The notes beneath the pieces were generated by a model, which saw only the letters and a list, made by a program, of their open reading frames with translations, did not search any database and had not been told where the DNA came from. Shown here piece after piece: positions 1 through 7,685 of a stretch of DNA of 8,405 nt. The DNA is from a virus. Its lineage: Duplodnaviria > Heunggongvirae > Uroviricota > Caudoviricetes. Position 1 is the stretch's first letter, and each line of letters starts with the position of its first letter. The stretch is taken from IMG/VR virus record IMGVR_UViG_3300015179_000040; one strand, 5' to 3'. The translations under genes were made by a program, and so were the position numbers.

Positions 1-1131
1 TCAAATGACCAGTTTTTTCCACTCCTTACCGCGTACATCGTTGTAAATATCGGTCATTTTTTGATTCGAATGACCTAGCAAAATTTTGGTATCAACCCCC
101 TGCTCTCTGAACAATCGCTCTGATAAAGATCTCTGCTCATGGAAAGAGGGTGGGGTGCCATTAGCACGCCAGTTGTAATCCACAGAATCCCGGGCTTTTT
201 TAAATGCAACTGTTAATGTTGCTGGCTTAGCCATCCCGCCGCGCTTAGCTGTCCCTTTCGCGTGATGGTGGTGCAATAGCCACGGACTAAGAACACAATC
301 GCGGCAGGATGACACTACATCATCCAGGGTGAGATTTAATTTATCGCAACGCAGAGCCAGAGGGATGGCAATCCGGGTTCCTGTTTTTTGCTGTTCGACA
401 TGAAGATAACCATCCCGGATATCCGAAAATTGCATTTTGCAAATATCTGAAAGGCGCTGGCCTGTCATCAGTGCCAGCAGCATACCGCGCTGTAAAAAGT
501 AACCATCCTTTTCCGCTGCGTTATAAATCATCATCCACTCATCAAAAGTCAGTCGCTGTCTTGATATCCGCACCTGCGGTTTTTTTTCCTATTTTGCAGG
601 GTTAAAGCCTGGCGGGACATCGCCCGTTTGCTGAGCTTCCCGGAAAACATCGATCAGTACCTTCCTGAAAATTTGTCCCATTCTGTTATGTCCTCTGGCC
701 TTGTACTCTTCCAGTACTGATACCACATCTTTTACGGTTATGGCATCTAACGGTCTGGTGCCAAAACGTTCATCAAATACCCTGAGAGGGGCCGCTTTCT
801 GTTTCAGCGTGTTGAGTTTGATCTCGCCGTTTTCATATCTTTCCTGTTGAATTTTTCTGTAATTATTCAGAAAAATGGTAACGGTTGATGAACCGCCGGT
901 ATCACTAATAATTTTCTCCTGCAGACTGAGCATTTGTTCCATTTGCTGCCGGGCAAGACGGCTGTTCGCTTCTGCTGCAATAGTTTCTGCCAGTTTCTGG
1001 TCAATACTGCCGAGACCGTGATTTTTGCCTGTTATGGGATGCCTGTAACGCCAGTAAACTTTGTTATTTCTTTTGTCAAAATACGGAGATAATCCCGGAA
1101 CATTGGTTTTATATTTTCGCGGGCGCGCCAT
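1..1131 (-). pseudogene. int: Lambda-family tyrosine integrase, full-length reading frame (376 codons) interrupted by a single in-frame TAG at 589-591
   Basis: ORFs 589..1131 and 1..573 are in the same frame, separated only by TAG plus five sense codons (GAA AAA AAA CCG CAG) before a GTG. The N-terminal part resembles the lambda Int arm-binding/core-binding region (RNNKVYWRYRHPITGKNHGLG vs lambda RNNGYYCYRDPRTGKEFGLG). The C-terminal part carries the catalytic residues in lambda-like context (TGQRLSDI, VEQQKTG, FHEQRSL, LLGHSN, TDIYNDVRG, with Tyr nucleophile). Reading-frame stop TGA at 3..1. Identity from motif memory, no search run. Confidence 0.8.
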
Positions 1132-1421: not shown

Positions 1422-3896
1422 TTAAAAATCAGCCTGATTCGGGATCAGTTTTTGCCAGATAACTGAAACGTATTTTGCCTGGTAACGGGCGTCATCAAGT
1501 GCATTATGGCGCTCACCTTCGAATGGAATAGCCGTTCTGGCATCGAAGTCTATGGCTTTCCCCAGCTCAACGATTGTGCGTACATCGCGATCGTTGTAGT
1601 AACGCCACGGGCAGGGGATCCCCTGCCGTTCGTATGAACGGCGCAAAATCGTGTTGTCGAAGTTGGCTCCATTTCCCCAGACCTGAACAAAAAATTCACC
1701 GGAGTTTTCGTCGATAAATTCCCGCAATTGTAACAGTGCATCATCTAACGGGATTTCATCGGTCATAATGGCAGACTGCGCTTCACGTGATTGCTTCAGC
1801 CACCTTTTAATGACGTCACGATCAATGACTCCGCCAGCAGTTTCCAGATCGATAGTCTTACTAAATTCCGGTCCCATATCTCCGGTTTGCGGATCGAAAA
1901 ATATTGCACCTATTGAGATGATCGGGGCATCAGGATTTTTTCCCATGGTTTCAAGGTCGATCATTAGATGGTCACACGTCCTGCTGGTGGATGTGATTTC
2001 TTGATGACCGTTCACCTTAATTGAGTGATCTGCCGTCTCGCCAGTTTCATTATCGCTATCGTGATGCTGATTGCCGTCAGTGTTCTCCTTGTGTGGATGT
2101 TCAGCGCCTTCCATTTCCTCCGGATCATCTTCCTGAACTTCAACCTGATACTCTTCATCGAATGTTTCCTGGTATGTTGCGTCGCCCATCACCGCGCCAC
2201 AATCAGGGCAGTTGCCGCCGCCGGTCTGACCGCAGGCGGTGCAGACTTTTTCCACTTCCTGTTGCGCCACTGGTTCAGGCTGTTTCGTTTCTGGCTCGTT
2301 TTGTAACGCATTTGGGCTGTTTTGTTCCGCTTTCTGGCCGTTCTGTTCCGTTTCTTGCTGGTTCTGATTCACTGAATCGCGGGTTTCAATCCCCTTCACC
2401 CATTTCGGATCATTCGGGTCGCTAATCCCTGCAACAAATTCACCACGTGATACAGCAAGCAACTTATTGGCGTCAGGCTGGCTGATATTGGCTGCCTGCA
2501 TAATTTTGTTTACTTCGTCAGCGGTAACTTTTACCGGCTCTGGTTGTGCGATCGTGTCAGATGCACCAGTATTTTGTTGTGAACCTGAGTACGTGCCGTT
2601 TTTACGTGCGAAGTATTCCTCTTTTGTGATTTCCGTAGCTCCCAGGGCCAGTGCTTTTTCCAGACCAGAAAGTTTGTTTGCGCGACCGTATTTTTCGCCG
2701 TCCTTATCGGTGAAAAGGAAGTAGAACGGTCCCTCACGCTCTACAGATGGTTCGTCTTCCACTTCGCATTCGGTTTTTTCGTTGTCCGGCATTGCCGTTT
2801 CCACTGCATCAGTTTCTGGTACTGGTGACGGGAGAGTACCAGCTGTGCCCTGATTTGTTCCTTCGTCATCTTCAAACACGCCCTTGGTAGTCAGGTATTC
2901 AGTGATGTATTTGTTCAGTGCTACGGGATCTTTGTGAATGTCGATCGGACGCTCACGGACAAGGCCAAAAATAGTCTGACGGTCGTAGCGAACGGCATCG
3001 GGTTGTTTGCGCATTGATGCGGAAATGCGCTTCCAGTCTTCGCGATCTTTGTCGATAACTTCATTTTTTGCCCAGCGATGGATGCTGCCGTCAATGTTTC
3101 CGGTATCAATATCGCCAGGCCAGAGAGCGTAGGCCAGTTCTTCATCCAGCGTTTTCCATGTCTGCTTGTATTCGCGACAAATGGCGGCAGTGACTGGGTT
3201 GATTTTTCCTGCTGAGTTTTCAGTGTTCTGTTGATTGACTCTGGCGCTGGCGAGATCAACAACAGACGTGTATTTTCCAGTCTCTTTGCGCTCTGCGTCC
3301 TGCCGTTTTTTCCAGTTACGTAATTCAGCCTGAATTTCGGGCCATTTGGCACCCGGATTACATTTGTGTTTAACCCATCCGATAGCGAACAGTTTGCGTT
3401 CCGGATACATAGCGTTAATTTCAGGCGTTTTCATCAGTGCTTCAACGATATGCCCGTCAAAGGTAGCAACGTCTTCCTGCAGTAATTCCTGCGCGTCAAT
3501 CGCCATATCAACGGTGATGTTTTCACATGTACCGAACTTAACCAGGACCGCGTTCTGTACTTCAAGGGACAGCTTGTCAAAATTGACGTTCATCGGATCG
3601 GATTCTGGTTCGACCGGAATAAAGGAAGCGGATTCCTCATCCCAGCGGTTTTCCTGCATATATTCAGCATCCCAGGAATCGAGGGCAGGGCGGGGTATAC
3701 CGGGTTTATCCTCGCAGACAAGAAATTTATAAGCGCAGTCCTGAGCAGCCGGATAATGTTCCAGGAATTGCCAGTGAAATTTTGCGCGGGCGCGACGTTC
3801 ATCACCGGCTTCAATGGCAGTGGCTACAGCGACGGCACCTTCTTCCTTTATTGCCTGTTCGTCCGGAATGGCGGCGCAAATAAAGACTTTACTCAT
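1422..3896 (-). CDS. Large prophage exonuclease (824 aa): RecE-like N-terminal region, acidic linker with CxxC-x7-CxxC knuckle, C-terminal DnaQ-like DEDDh 3'-5' exonuclease domain
   Basis: Long uninterrupted ORF with SD (GAGGT) 9 nt upstream of the ATG. The C-terminus has the three DEDDh motifs (MIDLETMG; WGNGANFDN; HNALDDARYQAKY). The central motif LLAVSRGEFVAGISDPNDPKWVKGIETRD matches what I remember of the RecE (exonuclease VIII) N-terminal region. Position between ydfD-like and xis matches the ydfE slot of K-12 Qin. No search run. Confidence 0.8.
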   Translation of the reverse strand: MSKVFICAAIPDEQAIKEEGAVAVATAIEAGDERRARAKFHWQFLEHYPAAQDCAYKFLVCEDKPGIPRPALDSWDAEYMQENRWDEESASFIPVEPESDPMNVNFDKLSLEVQNAVLVKFGTCENITVDMAIDAQELLQEDVATFDGHIVEALMKTPEINAMYPERKLFAIGWVKHKCNPGAKWPEIQAELRNWKKRQDAERKETGKYTSVVDLASARVNQQNTENSAGKINPVTAAICREYKQTWKTLDEELAYALWPGDIDTGNIDGSIHRWAKNEVIDKDREDWKRISASMRKQPDAVRYDRQTIFGLVRERPIDIHKDPVALNKYITEYLTTKGVFEDDEGTNQGTAGTLPSPVPETDAVETAMPDNEKTECEVEDEPSVEREGPFYFLFTDKDGEKYGRANKLSGLEKALALGATEITKEEYFARKNGTYSGSQQNTGASDTIAQPEPVKVTADEVNKIMQAANISQPDANKLLAVSRGEFVAGISDPNDPKWVKGIETRDSVNQNQQETEQNGQKAEQNSPNALQNEPETKQPEPVAQQEVEKVCTACGQTGGGNCPDCGAVMGDATYQETFDEEYQVEVQEDDPEEMEGAEHPHKENTDGNQHHDSDNETGETADHSIKVNGHQEITSTSRTCDHLMIDLETMGKNPDAPIISIGAIFFDPQTGDMGPEFSKTIDLETAGGVIDRDVIKRWLKQSREAQSAIMTDEIPLDDALLQLREFIDENSGEFFVQVWGNGANFDNTILRRSYERQGIPCPWRYYNDRDVRTIVELGKAIDFDARTAIPFEGERHNALDDARYQAKYVSVIWQKLIPNQADF
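2277..2381 (-). repeat. Degenerate 21-bp (heptad) tandem repeats inside the exonuclease gene
   Basis: About 4-5 imperfect copies of a GTTYTGTTCCGYTTCTKGCYG-like unit. They encode Q/N/E-rich heptads NQQETEQ / NGQKAEQ / NSPNALQ / NEPETKQ / PEPVAQQ in the linker preceding the zinc knuckle. Confidence 0.45.
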
Positions 3897-3975
3897 TTTG
3901 TTTTACCTCATTACAGATTTAAGGGTGAACAAATCCCTGCCATTGCTGGCATATAAAAATGAAACTGGATATTAA

Positions 3976-4179
3976 TTACGGCGCTGTTTTTAATCCTGCC
4001 GGGATTTCGTTATTGTCCATGTGAATAACTTTATCGACCGGATAACAGTTGCCGGGAATTTTCTGTTCCGCTGCGGCAGCCATGCATTCTTTCATTGAGT
4101 TGTACATGCCGGTGATTGCATCAAGCGACTCACCAGTATTGAGATGTACAGTCAGAATGAGTACGAATAATGTGTTCAT
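3976..4179 (-). CDS. ydfD: YdfD-like small membrane protein (DUF1482-type; reported lysis protein in Qin)
   Basis: 67 aa from the ATG at 4179..4177 (MNTLFVLILTVHLNTGESLDAITGMYNSMKECMAAAAEQKIPGNCYPVDKV...). Hydrophobic N-terminus. Its ATG overlaps the dicB TGA stop (ATGA), indicating translational coupling. Sits in the same position relative to dicB as K-12 ydfD. The ORF track starts it at an upstream GTG (4185). Confidence 0.7.
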   Translation of the reverse strand: MNTLFVLILTVHLNTGESLDAITGMYNSMKECMAAAAEQKIPGNCYPVDKVIHMDNNEIPAGLKTAP

Positions 4180-4364
4180 CGCCACTCTCCGAAAATACCG
4201 AGTTTAAGAAGGGCAATTCTGGAGAGTATGGAATTGTCATTCAGCAGGTAGGGTTCATATTTTCTCATATTGATTGCATCCTCGGTGAAATCCCTGTTAC
4301 TGAGCAGAACACCAATATTAAAGCACCCGTCAGACGTATTAACGTTTGGTAGTGACGTTTCCAT
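4176..4364 (-). CDS. dicB: DicB-family cell division inhibitor (MinC-activating, FtsZ-ring inhibitor)
   Basis: 62-aa ORF METSLPNVNTSDGCFNIGVLLSNRDFTEDAINMRKYE... matches my memory of the E. coli DicB N-terminal signature (LPNVNTSEGCFEIGV...FTEDAIN.RK). SD GAGGA 8 nt upstream, overlapping the rha stop codon. Confidence 0.85.
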   Translation of the reverse strand: METSLPNVNTSDGCFNIGVLLSNRDFTEDAINMRKYEPYLLNDNSILSRIALLKLGIFGEWR

Positions 4365-4374
4365 TATCGCGTCC

Positions 4375-4932
4375 TCAACAATGAATTTTTAGCAATTGCT
4401 CCACAGTCATATTTTTAATTGCGCTCCGGTTTACAAGAGTCCATCCTTGTTTCTCCAGATAAAACCGGAAGGTATCCAGGGTGCAGACCATTGCGCCGTC
4501 AGGAACGGTTTCAGTGAATTTGATATTGCCGTGTTCGTCGAGACGGATAACCAGGGTGCGTCCGTCCCCGTGAATCATTTTGTCGGGAGACGGGGCGTTA
4601 TTCTGGCGCAGTTCTGCTTCCATGCGGTCGAACTCAGCAATGTATGCCTCTTTAAATGCAGCGGCTTTTTTGCCAGTGAAGCCCATCACCAGGAAAACGA
4701 AGCCGTTTTTGGTGATTTGGTACATTGGGAGTTTGCGCCCGGTTGAGTCGGTGTATTCGCTCGACACAAAATTGTGCTCAGTGAATTTTGCTGAACAGTC
4801 CAGATTGCGAATTTTATCCAACACTCGTTCGTGGCGTTTGCCAAAGAACTCGGCGATCGCAACAGACGTAGTGACAGCGCGACCATTTTCGATGGTTACG
4901 TCAGGGTGAGAAAGGGTAAGGATAGTAGCCAT
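4375..4932 (-). CDS. rha: Rha-family phage regulatory protein (Phage_pRha domain; antirepressor-like)
   Basis: Start chosen at the ATG 4932..4930 (MATILTLSHPDVTIENGRAVTTSVAIAEFFGKRHERVLDKIRNL...YQITKNGFVFLVMGFTGKKAAAFKEAYIAEFDRME), preceded by GGAGG at 8-nt spacing. These motifs are typical of the Rha family. The in-frame upstream extension to 5229 in the ORF track was rejected (see noticed_but_rejected). Confidence 0.75.
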   Translation of the reverse strand: MATILTLSHPDVTIENGRAVTTSVAIAEFFGKRHERVLDKIRNLDCSAKFTEHNFVSSEYTDSTGRKLPMYQITKNGFVFLVMGFTGKKAAAFKEAYIAEFDRMEAELRQNNAPSPDKMIHGDGRTLVIRLDEHGNIKFTETVPDGAMVCTLDTFRFYLEKQGWTLVNRSAIKNMTVEQLLKIHC

Positions 4933-5097
4933 GATGGCAGCCTCCGCGATGAATTTGATTAACTCACCACCGAGGTTTTCCACGACCATAAGGGTGGTGA
5001 GACGTACAGGGGTGGAAATACCGGTCATCACGGAACCCGGCCAGCCTTGCGGCTGCCCTGCACGCCCCACCATAATGCGAATGTGGCTGTGCTTAAC

Positions 5098-5128
5098 GCA
5101 TAAAAAAACCGCCTGAGCGCGGTTATGC
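5098..5128 (-). terminator. Rho-independent terminator upstream of rha, within the operon
   Basis: On the minus strand: GCAUAACCGC-GCUCAG-GCGGUUUUUUUAUGC. A short GC stem with 6-nt loop followed directly by a 7-U tract. The plus strand has no U tract after the stem. Confidence 0.5.
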
Positions 5129-5410
5129 GCCGTGAATGATTTCGGGTTTCCACGCCCGGCACCCGTTTTATGAGGTGCAGGTGCACTATAATTCCACCCG
5201 TTCTGGTTTTCAATAGCTACATTCAACATTTTCTCTACCTTTCATCACCGAAGTGAACTTTGTTGATGCGGTGCCTGGTGCCTCCAGGTGACGTTAACCA
5301 GTTAACAATTAACGTCGGATACAGAGCATTCCCGTTACGCCCGTAAAAGACCGCTTGTTTTAACTGTTCCGCGTGCGCTGAGCCGCATTCACCGCATCAC
5401 AAAATTCACT

Positions 5411-5472
5411 TTAAAAGGGGCGGGTATCATGGGAAAAACAAAACGGATACCCGCCAAAAGGTAATCAACATG
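5411..5472 (-). ncRNA. dicF: DicF-like small RNA (divergent homolog) ending in an intrinsic terminator
   Basis: Minus-strand sequence UGUUGAUUACCUUUUGGCGGGUAUCCGUUUUGUUUUUCCCAUGAUACCCGCCCCUUUUAA has a 10-bp stem GGCGGGUAUC/GAUACCCGCC followed by CCUUUU. It resembles, from memory, E. coli DicF (…UUUGGCGGUAUCAGUUUUACUCC…GCCGCCCUUUUU). Synteny fits: downstream of ydfC-like, upstream of dicB. Ends are approximate; not confirmed by a covariance model. Confidence 0.45.
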
Positions 5473-5795
5473 GGTTGTTGCAGCGGGGTTGTCACTCAGG
5501 CGTATGGTCAACCTGACAACCCGGTGGACATTTGCGAGGAACGGAGAACCCCCGCCATACTTACCGCCGCGCCATTTCGCGGAGTGCCACAACCGGAAGC
5601 GCACGGTCGACGAAAATTTAACGACAGGCTATCTATGAACCAGCAACCTCGCCGTGCGCTTTCGCGTTATGCTCTGACTTTTCAGAGAAATATCCTTTCA
5701 GTAAACTGTCAGTGCCGGATGCTCACCCGTGTCCGGCGCACACACTCCACCTCACCCGTGGAGAACTCCTTAATTACCAACCCTCAGGAGGGTGA

Positions 5796-6029
5796 ATGTT
5801 AAAATCAACGCTTATTGCTAAATGCCTTTATCAAAATCGCATGGTAAGCAGCATTTCAATAGGCGAGTCTGCAGTTAAAAGTATTTTCGAAGAGTACTTT
5901 CCCGGGCATGATTTTAATAAATGGAATACCAAATTACCGCCAGCAGTTTCAACGCGTATTCTGAAAGCAACTGAAAGAGCAAGTACAATTCGCGTTAACT
6001 ATTTCATTAAAGATTTGTGGGATCTTTGA
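5796..6029 (+). CDS. Hypothetical 77-aa protein, opposite strand to the operon, convergent with and overlapping the 3' end of the 135-aa ORF
   Basis: ORF with AGGAGG-type SD 4-5 nt before the ATG at 5796. Protein-like composition (MLKSTLIAKCLYQNRMVSSISIGESAVKSIFEEYFPGHDFNKWNTKLPP...). No homolog recognised. Could be a chance ORF in an AT-rich stretch. Confidence 0.3.
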   Translation: MLKSTLIAKCLYQNRMVSSISIGESAVKSIFEEYFPGHDFNKWNTKLPPAVSTRILKATERASTIRVNYFIKDLWDL

Positions 6030-6414
6030 TATCCACAGAGCCTAAAGTATGTGCATATGGATGTGCTGTTGTGCGCCCTCGCAGATTTGCATCATTTTCT
6101 AAATTCACTGAACGAAACAGGGCATCAACAAGGCTCTGTACAATGCAAAGGCAATCGAAGACTGTCGCCGTTTCTGTTTTGATTGATGAAAGAACATGGC
6201 CATTCACGCAAACAGAAATTACCCGTTTATTAACATCGCTTTCCTGCTTTTGATTATCAGAACCATATAGCCCTGAAAAAGCATTGCGCACATTACGAAC
6301 CATATTATCGATGGTTTCTTTTTTGGTGTATGCCGGGTCAATTTTCACCAGACTATCACCGAGTGTCGTTGCAGCAATTATCTGGATTTCTTTTGGTAAA
6401 TCTTTAAATTCCAT
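6007..6414 (-). CDS. Hypothetical 135-aa protein of unknown function, in operon orientation between ydfC-like and the dicF-like RNA
   Basis: ORF with SD GAGG 6 nt upstream of the ATG at 6414, starting 22 nt after the ydfC-like stop. AT-rich codon usage distinct from the neighbouring GC-rich stretch. No family recognised from memory. Confidence 0.65.
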   Translation of the reverse strand: MEFKDLPKEIQIIAATTLGDSLVKIDPAYTKKETIDNMVRNVRNAFSGLYGSDNQKQESDVNKRVISVCVNGHVLSSIKTETATVFDCLCIVQSLVDALFRSVNLENDANLRGRTTAHPYAHTLGSVDIKDPTNL

Positions 6415-6436
6415 TATTAGCCTCGTTGGTTAACCA

Positions 6437-6655
6437 TTAACGTGGGTATGTAATCATTCTGGCAATGCTTAATGCCGCTGCTTTTTCCAGATTGGTGATA
6501 TCCTGCTCCAGAGCGGACAGATTTTCAGCCTGCTTAGCCCTGGCTTCATTGGCCCATTTCAGGTCCTGCGCAGCCTTAATTTTCTGGTGCATCCACTCAT
6601 AAAGTTCATCATCGGTATAGTCTGGCGCGATGATGACGGGTTCTCGTTTCTGCAT
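6437..6655 (-). CDS. ydfC: YdfC-like small protein (DUF1317-type)
   Basis: 72-aa ORF MQKREPVIIAPDYTDDELYEWMHQKIKAAQDLKWANEARAKQAENLSALEQ... with SD GAGGAA 7 nt upstream. Matches my memory of Qin YdfC in length and sequence. Confidence 0.75.
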   Translation of the reverse strand: MQKREPVIIAPDYTDDELYEWMHQKIKAAQDLKWANEARAKQAENLSALEQDITNLEKAAALSIARMITYPR

Positions 6656-6684
6656 ACTGATTCCTCGCGGTGCTGCTTCGCTTA

Positions 6685-6813
6685 TCAGCCGTTAGATTTT
6701 GCCGGGCTGGAAAGCGCCTGTATAAACTCACTGAAGCTGAGAGTTTCTTCGCCTTTGGCAAGGCCTTCGAAGTATTCTTCGTAAGCCTTTTCCATGATTG
6801 TGTCGAAATCCAT
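6685..6813 (-). CDS. ydfB: YdfB-like small protein (42 aa)
   Basis: Hand translation (below the ORF-track length cut-off): MDFDTIMEKAYEEYFEGLAKGEETLSFSEFIQALSSPAKSNG. ATG 6813..6811 lies 1 nt after the ydfA-like TGA stop, SD AGGTG upstream. Length and position match Qin ydfB. Confidence 0.6.
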   Translation of the reverse strand: MDFDTIMEKAYEEYFEGLAKGEETLSFSEFIQALSSPAKSNG

Positions 6814-6814
6814 A

Positions 6815-6970
6815 TCACTCACCTGAGTTTCTTTCCAGCCAGCGACGGGCACCATTTTCGGTTTTAAACGTTTTGCTTTTGGTATACGTCATCGCGGTGA
6901 ACGTACCGTCCTGGTTGGGGAACACACCACATACCAGAGATTCGTTGTTGCCAAGATCGATAGTATCCAT
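6815..6970 (-). CDS. ydfA: YdfA-like small protein (51 aa, DUF1391-type)
   Basis: Hand translation (not in ORF track): MDTIDLGNNESLVCGVFPNQDGTFTAMTYTKSKTFKTENGARRWLERNSGE. SD GAGG about 6 nt upstream of the ATG at 6970..6968. First gene after the predicted operon promoter. Confidence 0.65.
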   Translation of the reverse strand: MDTIDLGNNESLVCGVFPNQDGTFTAMTYTKSKTFKTENGARRWLERNSGE

Positions 6971-7035
6971 GTTGACCTCATTTCCCCTTAACGCCGGGTG
7001 GCGGAACTAAAACCTACAGCGCCGTGCTGTTCTTG

Positions 7036-7075
7036 ATAGAAATATTAGTAACGCGGATATTTTAAGTCAATAGTA
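7036..7075 (-). promoter_or_regulatory. Sigma-70 promoter of the ydfA-dicB-type operon with embedded operator-like motif
   Basis: Minus strand reads TTGACT-(17 nt)-TAATAT (-35 at plus coords 7065-7070, -10 at 7042-7047), about 65 nt upstream of the ydfA-like ATG. Contains the 9-mer AAATATTAG, which recurs at 7128-7136 and inverted at 7756-7764. Confidence 0.55.
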
Positions 7076-7167
7076 TGGCGTATGATATTTTTGATTTGGT
7101 AACTATGTAAATGTTTTTTCAAGGGAAAAATATTAGTTATACAGCTGATTTGCAGAAGTTATGGCAC

Positions 7168-7197
7168 AAAAAAACCGACTAAGACGTCGGTTTTTTT
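7168..7197. terminator. Bidirectional rho-independent terminator downstream of the repressor gene
   Basis: A7-CCGAC-UAAGAC-GUCGG-U7: GC stem flanked by complementary A and U tracts, so it can terminate on either strand. Lies 27 nt after the repressor stop. Confidence 0.6.
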
Positions 7198-7223
7198 GTT
7201 GTGGATGGGGTAGTGAGCGGTGG

Positions 7224-7685
7224 CTACTGGTTACGTTTCTTTAGTGCCAGCATGTTCTCGAAGGCTTCCTCGTAGAGCTTGTTTAGTCCACGTAGCTGGT
7301 TAAGGAGTTTGGCTTTTTCTGACGCAGGTAGAATCTCGAAGAGGTTAAGTAACTCTGCCTGTTCTTCATTGACCAGCCTCCATCCTTTGCCTGAAAAGTT
7401 ATCATCATAAGTATCTGATGATCTTACATAATTCATTAAGTCTTTAAGGTCTTCTCGAATGTCCTCTGGTTTTACCTTTAACAGAGCCGCAAATTTTAGC
7501 GCAGCGTCGGTATTTACCGGTATCTTGCCGTTCAGATACTGGCTAACGGTGCCTTGAGATTCGAATCCCAACAACTCAGCCGCCAGCTCTTGAGTCAGCT
7601 TCAGCTCTTTTTTTCTTGCATTCCATGCGGCTTTTAAATTCTTGCTCGCTTCTGGAGTTGCAATCACTTCGCGTGTTTTTTTCAT
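7224..7685 (-). CDS. DicA-like HTH (XRE-family) prophage repressor, no LexA/S24 autocleavage domain
   Basis: 153-aa ORF with HTH LTQELAAELLGFESQGTVSQYLNG and C-terminal LNLFEILPASEKAKLLNQLRGLNKLYEEAFENMLALKK, resembling the DicA C-terminus (LELFNALPESEQ...FNKLFEELLKARQ) from memory. Divergent from the Cro-like gene. No recognisable SD before the ATG. Confidence 0.75.
   Translation of the reverse strand: MKKTREVIATPEASKNLKAAWNARKKELKLTQELAAELLGFESQGTVSQYLNGKIPVNTDAALKFAALLKVKPEDIREDLKDLMNYVRSSDTYDDNFSGKGWRLVNEEQAELLNLFEILPASEKAKLLNQLRGLNKLYEEAFENMLALKKRNQ

What the first reader, a model, noticed from the sequence alone, without database searches (positions are those of the whole stretch)
4176..4932. 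Rha-family regulator between dicF and dicB, translationally coupled to dicB and ydfD
The rha stop (4375-4377) overlaps the SD of dicB, and the dicB stop overlaps the ydfD-like ATG (ATGA). The three genes therefore form a tightly coupled unit, with rha in a position where K-12 Qin, as I recall it, has only a short spacer. Rha proteins are linked to lysogeny/lytic decisions and host-factor dependence. DicB is known to inhibit division and to protect against some phages via ManYZ, so co-expression may be functionally meaningful.
Basis: partly seen in the sequence, partly recalled or inferred. Interest (0 to 1): 0.45.

Follow-up and report, generated by a model that had tools for sequence, protein, structure and literature searches.

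The report
RNA-switched Rha cassette upstream of dicB

Summary
The sequence features hold. On the minus strand, rha (4375-4932, 185 aa, Pfam Phage_pRha E=5e-31) ends in a TGA inside the dicB Shine-Dalgarno sequence (TGAGGA), 10 nt before the dicB ATG. dicB and the ydfD-like gene overlap as ATGA. Both junction sequences are identical or equivalent in K-12 Qin, which has no rha, so they were inherited, not built for rha.

An ~865-nt block (5253-4390) is absent from K-12. It holds a sigma70-like promoter, an IsrK sRNA (5102-5178), a C4-type antisense RNA (4990-5077) and rha. This is the Gifsy-1 isrK-orf45-anrP / P1 immI design. Target heptamers b1, b' and b2 covary three ways across 11 loci with 7 specificities. 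The Rha C-terminal domain is homologous to the Gifsy-1 inducer AnrP (hhalign 94%).

Canonical DicF is not detected in this window. A divergent hairpin occupies its place, while E. coli 042 has true DicF there.

About 5-7% of complete E. coli genomes carry rha-dicB; 77% have the K-12 junction.

I read this as a known riboregulated antirepressor-type cassette sitting in the dicB operon. The cassette identification is secure. Rha's antirepressor activity and any real coupling to dicB are inferred. Interest is moderate.

The parts
5185..5213 (-). Predicted sigma70-type promoter of isrK (TTGAAA, 17 nt, TATAGT); the predicted start is near 5178
   Evidence: Promoter scan gives 10 of 12 matches. The -10 positions A2, A4 and T6 are invariant at the same columns in 11 homologous leaders, including Gifsy-1, where PisrK is experimentally defined (PMC4825925). 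This is a prediction only.
5102..5178 (-). IsrK-type sRNA with an intrinsic terminator (stem 5124-5107 plus a U7 tract). Loop 2 carries target site b1, GUGGAAA (5153-5147)
   Evidence: Rfam RF01394 scores 67.7 bits against a gathering score of 50. The terminator scan finds the stem. A sub-threshold c4-a1b1 hit covers 5139-5191.
4990..5077 (-). C4-type antisense RNA, the equivalent of Gifsy-1 STnc1160/orf45'. It carries b' UUUCCAC (5018-5012)
   Evidence: Rfam RF01695 scores 81.9 bits against a gathering score of 45. The fold is -47.3 kcal/mol with z=-4.4. The b1:b' helix is 98.7% paired, with 6 of 7 pairs showing compensatory changes and 0 of 500 shuffles as good.
4977..4983 (-). b2 target heptamer GUGGAAA, just 3' of C4 and 45 nt upstream of the rha ATG
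   Evidence: An exact reverse complement of b' occurs once upstream and once 33-35 nt downstream in 10 of 11 loci, covering 7 specificities.
5071..5073 (-). AUG at C4 position +4, equivalent to the Gifsy-1 orf45 start. Here it is in frame with rha, 47 codons upstream, with no intervening stop
   Evidence: The distance to the cargo ATG is 141, 138 or 135 nt in relatives, always a multiple of 3.
4375..4932 (-). rha: 185 aa, with an N-terminal Rha domain of KilA-N/Bro-N/APSES-like fold and a C-terminal AnrP-like domain. The Shine-Dalgarno sequence GGAGG lies at 4945-4941
4375..5229 (-). Long 284-aa ORF as annotated by NCBI PGAP (WP_000935597-like). Its N-terminal 99 codons are the translation of isrK plus C4 and match Pfam Phage_ASH
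   Evidence: The cargo frame has 0 stops across isrK-C4 in 7 of 7 Rha/Ash loci, but dN/dS there is about 1 (0.63-2.07).
4360..4385 (-). Hairpin UUCAUUGUUG-AGGACG-CGAUAAUGGA. It pairs the dicB AUG with the last rha codons (AUU CAU UGU UGA). The same hairpin is present in K-12
   Evidence: -8.2 kcal/mol, z=-1.3; weak.
4176..4364 (-). dicB: 62 aa, 60% identical to K-12 DicB
   Evidence: PF05358 E=1.3e-32; comparison with K-12.
3976..4179 (-). ydfD-like DUF1482 gene. Its ATG overlaps the dicB TGA as ATGA
   Evidence: PF07358 E=2e-19.
5410..5462 (-). Divergent dicF-like hairpin/terminator at the position syntenic with K-12 and 042 DicF
   Evidence: Alignments A1 and A2. No Rfam DicF hit. The fold is -17.2 kcal/mol with z=-3.5.

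Best explanation
rha is the protein cargo of a P1-immI / Gifsy-1-isrK-type riboregulated cassette. The cassette sits inside the leftward (PL-like, dicB) operon of a Qin/Rac-like prophage of E. coli.

The cassette spans about 865 nt (5253-4390) and is absent from K-12 Qin. It consists of its own promoter, the terminated sRNA IsrK (bearing site b1), a C4-type antisense RNA (bearing b'), a downstream target site b2, and rha.

Proposed working, by analogy with Gifsy-1 and P1:
- The promoter fires independently of the prophage repressor.
- Most transcripts stop at the IsrK terminator. Read-through transcripts are translationally silent, because C4/b' pairing and local structure block entry to the in-frame upstream ORF and to the rha start.
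- Free IsrK, as a b1 decoy for b', flips the RNA to the active form.
- Rha has a KilA-N-like N-domain and an AnrP-like C-domain. It then acts as an antirepressor-type inducer of the short, non-cleavable DicA/Gifsy-class repressor encoded at 7224-7685.
- dicB starts 10 nt after the rha stop, its AUG is paired with the last rha codons, and ydfD overlaps dicB. Ribosomes and RNA polymerase that get through rha would therefore also deliver DicB (division block) and YdfD (lysis protein).

Shown by computation: the identity and integrity of the RNAs, the covarying sites, the Rha domains and the gene order.

Inferred: promoter activity, the direction of regulation, the antirepressor activity of Rha, and coupling to dicB.
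For: - Rfam hits above gathering score for isrK (67.7 vs 50) and C4 (81.9 vs 45), immediately upstream of rha.
- The same pair precedes Rha, Ant or antirepressor genes in 8 fetched phages and in Gifsy-1.
- b1, b' and b2 match three ways, with 7 different heptamer specificities across 11 loci. The b1:b' helix is 98.7% paired, 6 of 7 pairs show compensatory change, and 0 of 500 shuffles do as well.
- A promoter-like site lies at 5213-5185 and a terminator at 5124-5107.
- The block is a clean indel relative to K-12.
- The Rha C-domain is homologous to AnrP (hhalign 94.4%, E=9e-8). AnrP expression induces the antQ operon and Gifsy-1 (PMC4825925).
- PHROGs place both Rha domains in 'anti-repressor' families.
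- The window repressor is 153 aa and HTH-only. It shares the DicA/GfoR C-terminal motif. Such repressors are controlled by antirepressors (PMC10448788).
- Rha-DicB-DUF1482 at identical spacing was seen in 12 of 12 places examined for two further alleles, across at least 4 immunity regions.
- P1 immI likewise links the C4 RNA, the division inhibitor Icd and the antirepressor Ant (PMC8201110).
Against: - There are no expression data for this locus.
- The a-type sites of P1 were not identified, and c4-a1b1 scores below its Rfam threshold here (25.7 vs 46.7).
- b2 does not overlap the rha Shine-Dalgarno sequence.
- The strong rha-TIR structure seen in this sequence (z=-4.8) has no covariation support in relatives.
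- The Rha N-domain differs from that of AnrP (Rha vs ORF6N). AnrP's own mechanism, antirepressor or activator, is unresolved.
- The cassette co-occurs with several different repressors, which argues against a strictly cognate antirepressor.
- The dicB TIR hairpin is weak (z=-1.3) and is identical in K-12, where dicB is expressed without rha.
- The same Rha is followed by YdaE, not DicB, in L026.
Confidence: 0.6

Rival explanations
1. The cassette and dicB are neighbours by accident of modular recombination. The isrK-C4-rha unit is a self-contained mobile module that recombined into the conserved dicB leader. The IsrK terminator and C4 keep transcription away from dicB, and the TGA-in-SD junction has no regulatory role.
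For: - The junction sequence GTTGAGGACGCGATAATG is identical in K-12 without rha.
- The last 3-4 rha codons (KIHC*) come from the dicB leader. A relative in a different context ends ...LLSLK.
- The same Rha precedes YdaE at the same 10-nt spacing in L026.
- In lambdoid phages the cassette sits in the PR operon, before the replication genes.
- rha is a recombination mosaic: its N- and C-domains have different dS histories.
- The dicB hairpin is not significantly stable.
Against: - The arrangement is kept at identical spacing in three diverged alleles, three RNA specificities and several immunity types, in 12 of 12 places examined.
- A 10-nt gap leaves no room for a terminator or promoter, so any RNA polymerase finishing rha enters dicB.
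Confidence: 0.3
2. One reading: rha is an ordinary cistron of the dicF-dicB polycistron. It is expressed only from the repressor-controlled dicBp-like promoter, and with dicB and ydfD it forms one translationally coupled trio.
For: - All genes from the ydfA-like gene to ydfD are on the same strand, with a repressor-proximal promoter-like site at 7111-7082.
- The stop/SD and ATGA overlaps are real.
- An ATG with a Shine-Dalgarno-like sequence at 5229 opens a 284-aa frame that transcripts from upstream could translate straight through isrK and C4.
Against: - It ignores the promoter, the terminated sRNA and the antisense RNA between the dicF-like element and rha. The covarying sites show these are under selection.
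- Canonical DicF is missing here.
- The region upstream of the rha ATG evolves without protein-level constraint (dN/dS about 1).
Confidence: 0.15
3. Rha is a DNA-binding transcription factor, activator or repressor, rather than a protein-binding antirepressor. It could, for example, act directly on prophage or host promoters.
For: - NCBI and PHROGs label relatives 'transcriptional regulator'.
- The Gifsy-1 paper leaves open that AnrP raises antQ-operon transcription by activation (PMC4825925).
- The cassette occurs with several different repressors.
Against: - The same N-domain superfamily is found in classical antirepressors (PHROG 'anti-repressor Ant' families hit at 1e-19 to 2e-31).
- The prophage repressor is of the class known to need an antirepressor (PMC10448788).
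- In P1, and as inferred for Gifsy-1, the C4/IsrK leader controls antirepressor-type genes.
Confidence: 0.3

Closest known systems
Gifsy-1 isrK-orf45-anrP-isrJ locus of Salmonella (Hershko-Shalev et al. 2016, PMC4825925)
   Same: - Promoter, IsrK sRNA with terminator, and C4-type RNA (STnc1160/orf45') occur in the same order and spacing (Rfam hits in both).
- The AUG at C4 position +4 is shared.
- The complementary IsrK-loop and C4 heptamers covary between the two loci.
- The cargo proteins are of similar size (185 vs 187 aa) with homologous C-terminal domains.
   Different: - The cargo N-domain is Rha (PF09669), not ORF6N (PF10543).
- The orf45 equivalent has no stop and is fused in frame to rha.
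- No isrJ lies downstream; dicB-ydfD follow instead.
- The location is the PL-type operon next to the integration module, not downstream of antQ.
Phage P1/P7 immI operon (c4 antisense RNA, icd, ant; Citron and Schuster 1990, as summarised in PMC8201110)
   Same: - A C4-family RNA is processed from the same transcript as its target.
- Complementary sites lie upstream and downstream of C4.
- The cargo is an antirepressor-type protein.
- A small cell-division inhibitor sits in the same operon.
   Different: - Here the division inhibitor (DicB, unrelated to Icd) lies downstream of the antirepressor-type gene rather than upstream.
- An IsrK-type terminated sRNA carries the upstream site.
- Only the b-type site was identified.
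- Rha is not homologous to P1 Ant over its full length.
dicBF operon of the K-12 Qin cryptic prophage (Ragunathan et al. 2023, PMC10448788)
   Same: - The ydfA, ydfB, ydfC, dicB, ydfD and ydfE-like genes are in the same order. Flanks are 82-95% identical.
- The dicB leader/SD hairpin is identical and the dicB-ydfD ATGA overlap is the same.
- The repressor is of the short DicA type.
   Different: - K-12 has canonical DicF and goes straight from the spacer to dicB.
- The window has a variant dicF-like hairpin, an extra 634-nt segment with a 135-aa ORF, and the 865-nt isrK-C4-rha block.
- The known DicA antirepressor in K-12 is Rem, which is unrelated and encoded 3.6 kb upstream of the dicBF operon.
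isrK-C4-Rha/Ant 'antirepressor' ORFs in the PR operons of Stx, cdtI and e14-like lambdoid phages
   Same: - The isrK-C4 leader is the same (66-81% identity).
- The cargo RBS GAGGCTGCCATCATGGCTAC is conserved.
- The Rha N-domain is 68-72% identical.
   Different: - There the cassette lies between the cII/ymfL-like gene and the replication genes.
- It is fused upstream to a YmfM-like segment.
- It carries a different C-terminal domain, and no dicB follows.

Membership tests
Rha family (Pfam PF09669 Phage_pRha) | Match to the Phage_pRha domain above the curated cut-off | tested here: met
   107.6 bits against a cut-off of 29.9, E=5e-31, aa 21-105. 10,124 representative clusters are related.
Rha family (Pfam PF09669 Phage_pRha) | The phi80 rha phenotype: inhibition of phage growth in IHF-deficient hosts | not testable with these tools
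   This needs genetics. The phenotype is recalled from the literature and was not checked here.
C4 antisense RNA system (P1/P7 immI; Rfam RF01695, clan CL00128) | C4 RNA sequence and structure | tested here: met
   81.9 bits against a gathering score of 45, full-length model match 1-87. Fold z=-4.4.
C4 antisense RNA system (P1/P7 immI; Rfam RF01695, clan CL00128) | Complementary target sites both upstream (a1/b1) and downstream (a2/b2) of C4 on the same transcript | tested here: inconclusive
   b1, b' and b2 are present and covary. No a-type pair was identified. Rfam c4-a1b1 scores 25.7 against 46.7 here, although it passes in Gifsy-1 at 48.1.
C4 antisense RNA system (P1/P7 immI; Rfam RF01695, clan CL00128) | C4 represses synthesis of a downstream antirepressor | not testable with these tools
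   This requires reporter fusions. Only the gene order and the nature of the cargo were shown.
Gifsy-1 isrK locus | IsrK sRNA with an intrinsic terminator, directly upstream of the C4/orf45 region | tested here: met
   RF01394 at 67.7 bits against 50. Terminator with 6 pairs plus U7.
Gifsy-1 isrK locus | A separate small orf45 that terminates before the cargo and is translationally coupled to it | tested here: not met
   The AUG is at the same place (5073), but the frame runs into rha without a stop.
Gifsy-1 isrK locus | AnrP-type cargo | tested here: inconclusive
   The C-domain is homologous (hhalign probability 94.4%). The N-domain belongs to a different Pfam family.
Gifsy-1 isrK locus | isrJ downstream and antQ upstream | tested here: not met
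   No isrJ hit in the window. dicB follows, and ydfC/orf135 and the dicF-like region precede.
dicBF operon (Qin type) | DicF sRNA (Rfam RF00039) upstream of dicB | tested here: not met
   No hit at E<=10 in 4900-7200. K-12 scores 76.7 bits and 042 scores 71.5 bits with the same tool. The variant pairs poorly with the ftsZ TIR.
dicBF operon (Qin type) | dicB followed by an overlapping ydfD, with ydfA/B/C upstream and a DicA-type repressor | tested here: met

The most novel reading that the evidence does not exclude
The C4/IsrK RNA switch here gates a three-part output from one transcript: an antirepressor-type inducer (Rha), a division inhibitor that also blocks phage receptors (DicB), and a lysis protein (YdfD). 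This may be one instance of a recurrent phage design that ties antirepressor release to arrest of host division. Other instances would be P1 c4-icd-ant and the YmfM-like-isrK-C4-Rha fusion ORFs of Stx, cdtI and e14-type phages. In carriers, DicB would then have a repressor-independent, RNA-controlled route of expression that is absent from K-12. The resident C4 and IsrK could also cross-talk in trans with incoming phages of the same heptamer specificity, such as Stx2a_1447 and Salmonella phage 118970_sal3, which share GUGGAAA.
Probability: 0.25. Interest if true: 0.6.

Novelty: new variant of a known kind. Interest (0 to 1): 0.4.

Why it matters
DicB and DicF are the best-studied toxic products of cryptic prophages, and their control has been worked out only in K-12 (DicA, DicC, Rem, RNase processing). 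In roughly one in fifteen to twenty complete E. coli genomes, dicB instead lies 10 nt behind a riboregulated antirepressor-type gene with its own promoter. These genomes include reference strains 042 and NCTC86.

If read-through from that cassette reaches dicB, the rules for when DicB is made would differ in these strains. That affects filamentation, ManYZ-dependent phage resistance and YdfD lysis. It could be tested with simple fusions.

The locus also gives a natural E. coli model for the IsrK/C4 switch with several matched-specificity alleles. It further warns that the 284-aa 'Rha' and 'Ash family' annotations partly translate RNA genes.

Tried and rejected
- Canonical DicF in the window: rejected. 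There is no Rfam hit at E<=10, and blastn-short matches only the flanks.
- The 284-aa PGAP ORF as the functional protein: not favoured. The frame is open in 7 of 7 loci, but dN/dS is about 1 upstream of ATG 4932 against 0.05-0.30 downstream.
- rha as a truncated gene: rejected. Relatives at 39-51% identity end at the same point. Only the last 3-4 codons derive from the dicB leader.
- A conserved hairpin hiding the rha Shine-Dalgarno sequence: the window's own fold is strong (z=-4.8), but RNAalifold on 8 relatives gives a weak helix with no covariation. I did not rely on it.
- A P1-like a-site pairing between the IsrK loop 1 and the C4 loop: no convincing complementarity.
- A LexA box near the cassette: none found; 3 matches elsewhere, at chance level.
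- Sequence search of the PDB with Rha: nothing significant.
- isrK/C4 in K-12 e14 next to ymfM: none found.
- A direct repeat flanking the 865-nt block: the left junction resembles the dicB leader only loosely, so it is not used as evidence.
- A weak terminator-like site inside rha (4479-4465): at chance level (7 found against 3.8 +/- 1.8 expected).
Full report
**1. What is in the sequence**

All relevant genes are on the minus strand.
- rha runs from ATG 4932 to TGA 4377-4375. It encodes 185 aa and matches Pfam Phage_pRha at E=5e-31.
- The minus strand then reads TGA-GGA-CGCGATA-ATG. The rha stop overlaps the GAGGA Shine-Dalgarno sequence of dicB, and the dicB ATG (4364) follows 10 nt later.
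- dicB (4176-4364; PF05358, E=1e-32) ends in a TGA that overlaps the ATG (4179) of a DUF1482/YdfD-like gene as ATGA.
- The operon continues with an 824-aa YdfE-like/Rv2179c exonuclease gene, xis and int.
- Upstream lie ydfA/B/C-like genes and a 153-aa HTH repressor, divergent from a YdaS/Cro-like gene.

The window is E. coli. Positions 3900-5300 are 100% identical to several complete genomes and 99.9% identical to E. coli 042 and NCTC86.

**2.

Rfam finds two RNA genes directly upstream of rha on the same strand. One is an IsrK sRNA (5102-5178, 67.7 bits against a gathering score of 50). The other is a C4 antisense RNA (4990-5077, 81.9 bits against 45). A sigma70-like promoter (TTGAAA, 17 nt, TATAGT; 5213-5185) precedes IsrK, and IsrK ends in an intrinsic terminator (5124-5107 plus U7).

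Rfam finds no DicF in 4900-7200, even at E<=10. Alignment with K-12 Qin shows that window 5782-5254 is homologous to the K-12 ydfC-dicF-dicB spacer at 85% identity. The DicF core, however, is replaced by a different 10-bp hairpin, with a 9-nt deletion and a new loop. E. coli 042 carries the same isrK-C4-rha-dicB and does have bona fide DicF there at 71.5 bits. So does another allele, L020.

**3. Relation to K-12**

Homology to K-12 breaks at about window 5253 and resumes at 4389. The promoter, isrK, C4 and rha therefore form one ~865-nt indel.

The right-hand junction lies inside rha. Its last codons AAA-ATT-CAT-TGT-TGA, and the TGAGGA, belong to the dicB leader that K-12 also has (AAAATTCATTGTTGAGGACGCGATAATG). 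A relative of this Rha in another context ends ...LLSLK instead of ...LLKIHC. The ATGA overlap of dicB and ydfD is also present in K-12. The 'coupling' features are thus inherited dicB-operon sequence that rha has come to abut.

A 10-bp hairpin pairs the dicB AUG with what are here the last rha codons. It is conserved in K-12 but weak (-8.2 kcal/mol, z=-1.3).

**4. The cassette is a known kind**

The same isrK-C4 pair precedes genes annotated as Rha, Ant, antirepressor or Ash in 194 phage records. Rfam confirmed the pair in eight loci I fetched, and in Gifsy-1.

In Gifsy-1 this is the experimentally studied isrK-orf45-anrP-isrJ locus. Read-through of the IsrK terminator gives a translationally silent mRNA. 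IsrK in trans opens it, orf45 translation is coupled to anrP, and AnrP induces the antQ operon and the prophage (PMC4825925). In P1, C4 RNA controls icd, a division inhibitor, and ant, the antirepressor (PMC8201110).

Alignment of 11 leaders shows one heptamer present three times: in the IsrK loop (b1), as its complement in C4 (b'), and again 33-35 nt downstream of b' (b2).
- There are 7 different specificities. The window has GUGGAAA / UUUCCAC / GUGGAAA at 5153-5147, 5018-5012 and 4983-4977.
- Two other rha-dicB alleles have UUGCUAC and UUGGCCU.
- The b1:b' helix is 98.7% paired, with compensatory changes in 6 of 7 pairs, and 0 of 500 shuffles do as well.

The switch is clearly under selection here.

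**5. The protein**

Purifying selection starts at ATG 4932. dN/dS is 0.08-0.30 for the N-domain and 0.05-0.15 for the C-domain among same-type alleles. The upstream frame across isrK-C4 evolves at dN/dS 0.63-2.07.

That upstream frame is nevertheless free of stops in 7 of 7 Rha/Ash-type loci, against 2-5 stops in nearly every other frame. The AUG at C4 position +4, the orf45 start in Gifsy-1, is always a multiple of 3 from the cargo ATG. PGAP accordingly annotates a 284-aa protein whose first 99 residues hit Pfam Phage_ASH.

I read this as an ORF kept open for ribosome transit, not as a protein domain. That reading is an inference.

An AlphaFold2 model (pLDDT 84) gives the following picture.
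- The C-domain (aa ~100-185) is homologous to the C-terminal part of AnrP (hhalign 94.4%, E=9e-8). It also matches PHROG 'anti-repressor' families.
- The AnrP N-domain is ORF6N rather than Rha.

The prophage repressor is short and lacks a peptidase domain. It shares the ELLxLFxxLPxSEK motif with DicA and the Gifsy-1 repressor. That class is inactivated by antirepressors, for example Rem acting on DicA (PMC10448788).

**6. Distribution**

Counts are out of 5426 complete E. coli genomes.

| Feature | Genomes |
|---|---|
| K-12-type spacer-dicB junction | 4192 |
| rha-dicB junction (megablast) | 259 |
| Whole rha plus junction (sensitive mode) | 398 |

Two diverged alleles (88% and 91% identical protein, with different RNA specificities) were followed by DicB and DUF1482 at the same spacing in 12 of 12 places. 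These places carried at least four different immunity regions.

In L026 the same Rha is followed at 10 nt by YdaE. It is preceded there by a different RNA, Rfam sRNA-Xcc1.

Rha before dicB is therefore a recurrent minority arrangement. It is neither universal nor obligatory.

**7. Mechanism, and what is shown versus inferred**

Shown by computation:
- the RNA genes and their covarying sites;
- the promoter-like and terminator-like elements;
- the intact, selected rha gene;
- the gene order and junctions.

Inferred by homology with Gifsy-1 and P1:
- repressor-independent transcription from PisrK;
- silencing of read-through mRNA, with activation by IsrK acting as a b1 decoy;
- Rha acting as an antirepressor-type inducer.

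Inferred from anatomy only: polymerases and ribosomes that complete rha go on to express dicB and ydfD.

Open points:
- The sign of C4 action is unknown.
- The a-sites were not found.
- The rha-TIR structure seen in this sequence has no covariation support in relatives.

**8. Literature**

I found no paper that links Rha, IsrK or C4 with dicB. Rha, dicB and dicF are co-mentioned in two unrelated papers, and isrK with dicF only in reviews or lists.

**9. Verdict**

The element is best filed as a new variant of the known C4/IsrK-controlled antirepressor cassette, placed in the dicB operon. Interest is moderate (0.4).

Noticed in passing
window 5410-5462 (-): The DicF core is replaced by a different terminator-like hairpin (GGCGGGUAUC...GAUACCCGCC). 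Rfam DicF does not match it. Its predicted duplex with the ftsZ TIR (-24.6 kcal/mol) is no better than shuffles, whereas K-12 DicF gives -38.5. Similar alleles occur in about 200 of 5426 genomes and are unannotated.
   Followed up: partly
window 589-591 (-), within int 1-1131: The integrase gene carries an in-frame stop (PAK*EKKPQ, against PAESAKKPQ in the intact 376-aa integrase of E. coli 042). The prophage is probably unable to excise.
   Followed up: yes
window 4933-5229 (-); also L003-L008: The reading frame of the cargo stays free of stops across both RNA genes in 7 of 7 Rha/Ash-type loci, and this stretch defines Pfam PF10554 'Phage_ASH'. Yet it evolves at dN/dS of about 1. The Pfam family and the 284/383-aa 'Rha/antirepressor/Ash' annotations may largely be translations of the IsrK and C4 RNAs, or of a transit ORF.
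   Followed up: partly
L004 2144-2500, L005, L007; K-12 e14 ymfM (L024 4823-5161): In Stx2a_1447, PhiR63_1 and cdtI, the long 'antirepressor' ORF starts with about 90 residues homologous to the e14 cell-division inhibitor YmfM (32% identity, E=4e-8). This segment is fused in frame to isrK-C4-Rha. e14 itself has no isrK or C4. It is another case of a division inhibitor next to this cassette.
   Followed up: partly
window 5783-6416 (-), ORF 6007-6414: A 634-nt segment absent from K-12 Qin lies between ydfC and the dicF-like region. It encodes a 135-aa protein (phrog_1363, unknown function, no Pfam hit).
   Followed up: no
L026 3367-3456 and 3501-4353: A 90%-identical Rha in another PL-type operon is preceded by Rfam sRNA-Xcc1 (67.4 bits) instead of isrK/C4. 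It is followed at the same 10-nt spacing by a YdaE-family gene instead of dicB.
   Followed up: partly
window 1422-3896 (-): A full-length 824-aa YdfE-like protein with a C-terminal Rv2179c-like 3'-5' exoribonuclease domain. In K-12 the ydfE counterpart is a pseudogene cut by IS2.
   Followed up: no
window 5259-5406 (-): A sub-threshold Rfam STnc100 match (35.6 bits against a gathering score of 47) lies in the conserved spacer between the dicF-like element and the cassette. This spacer is also present in K-12.
   Followed up: no
window 4375-4932 compared with L011 and L020: rha is a recombination mosaic. Against one allele the C-domain is nearly identical (dS 0.11) while the N-domain is diverged (dS 0.54). 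Against another allele the pattern is reversed.
   Followed up: partly
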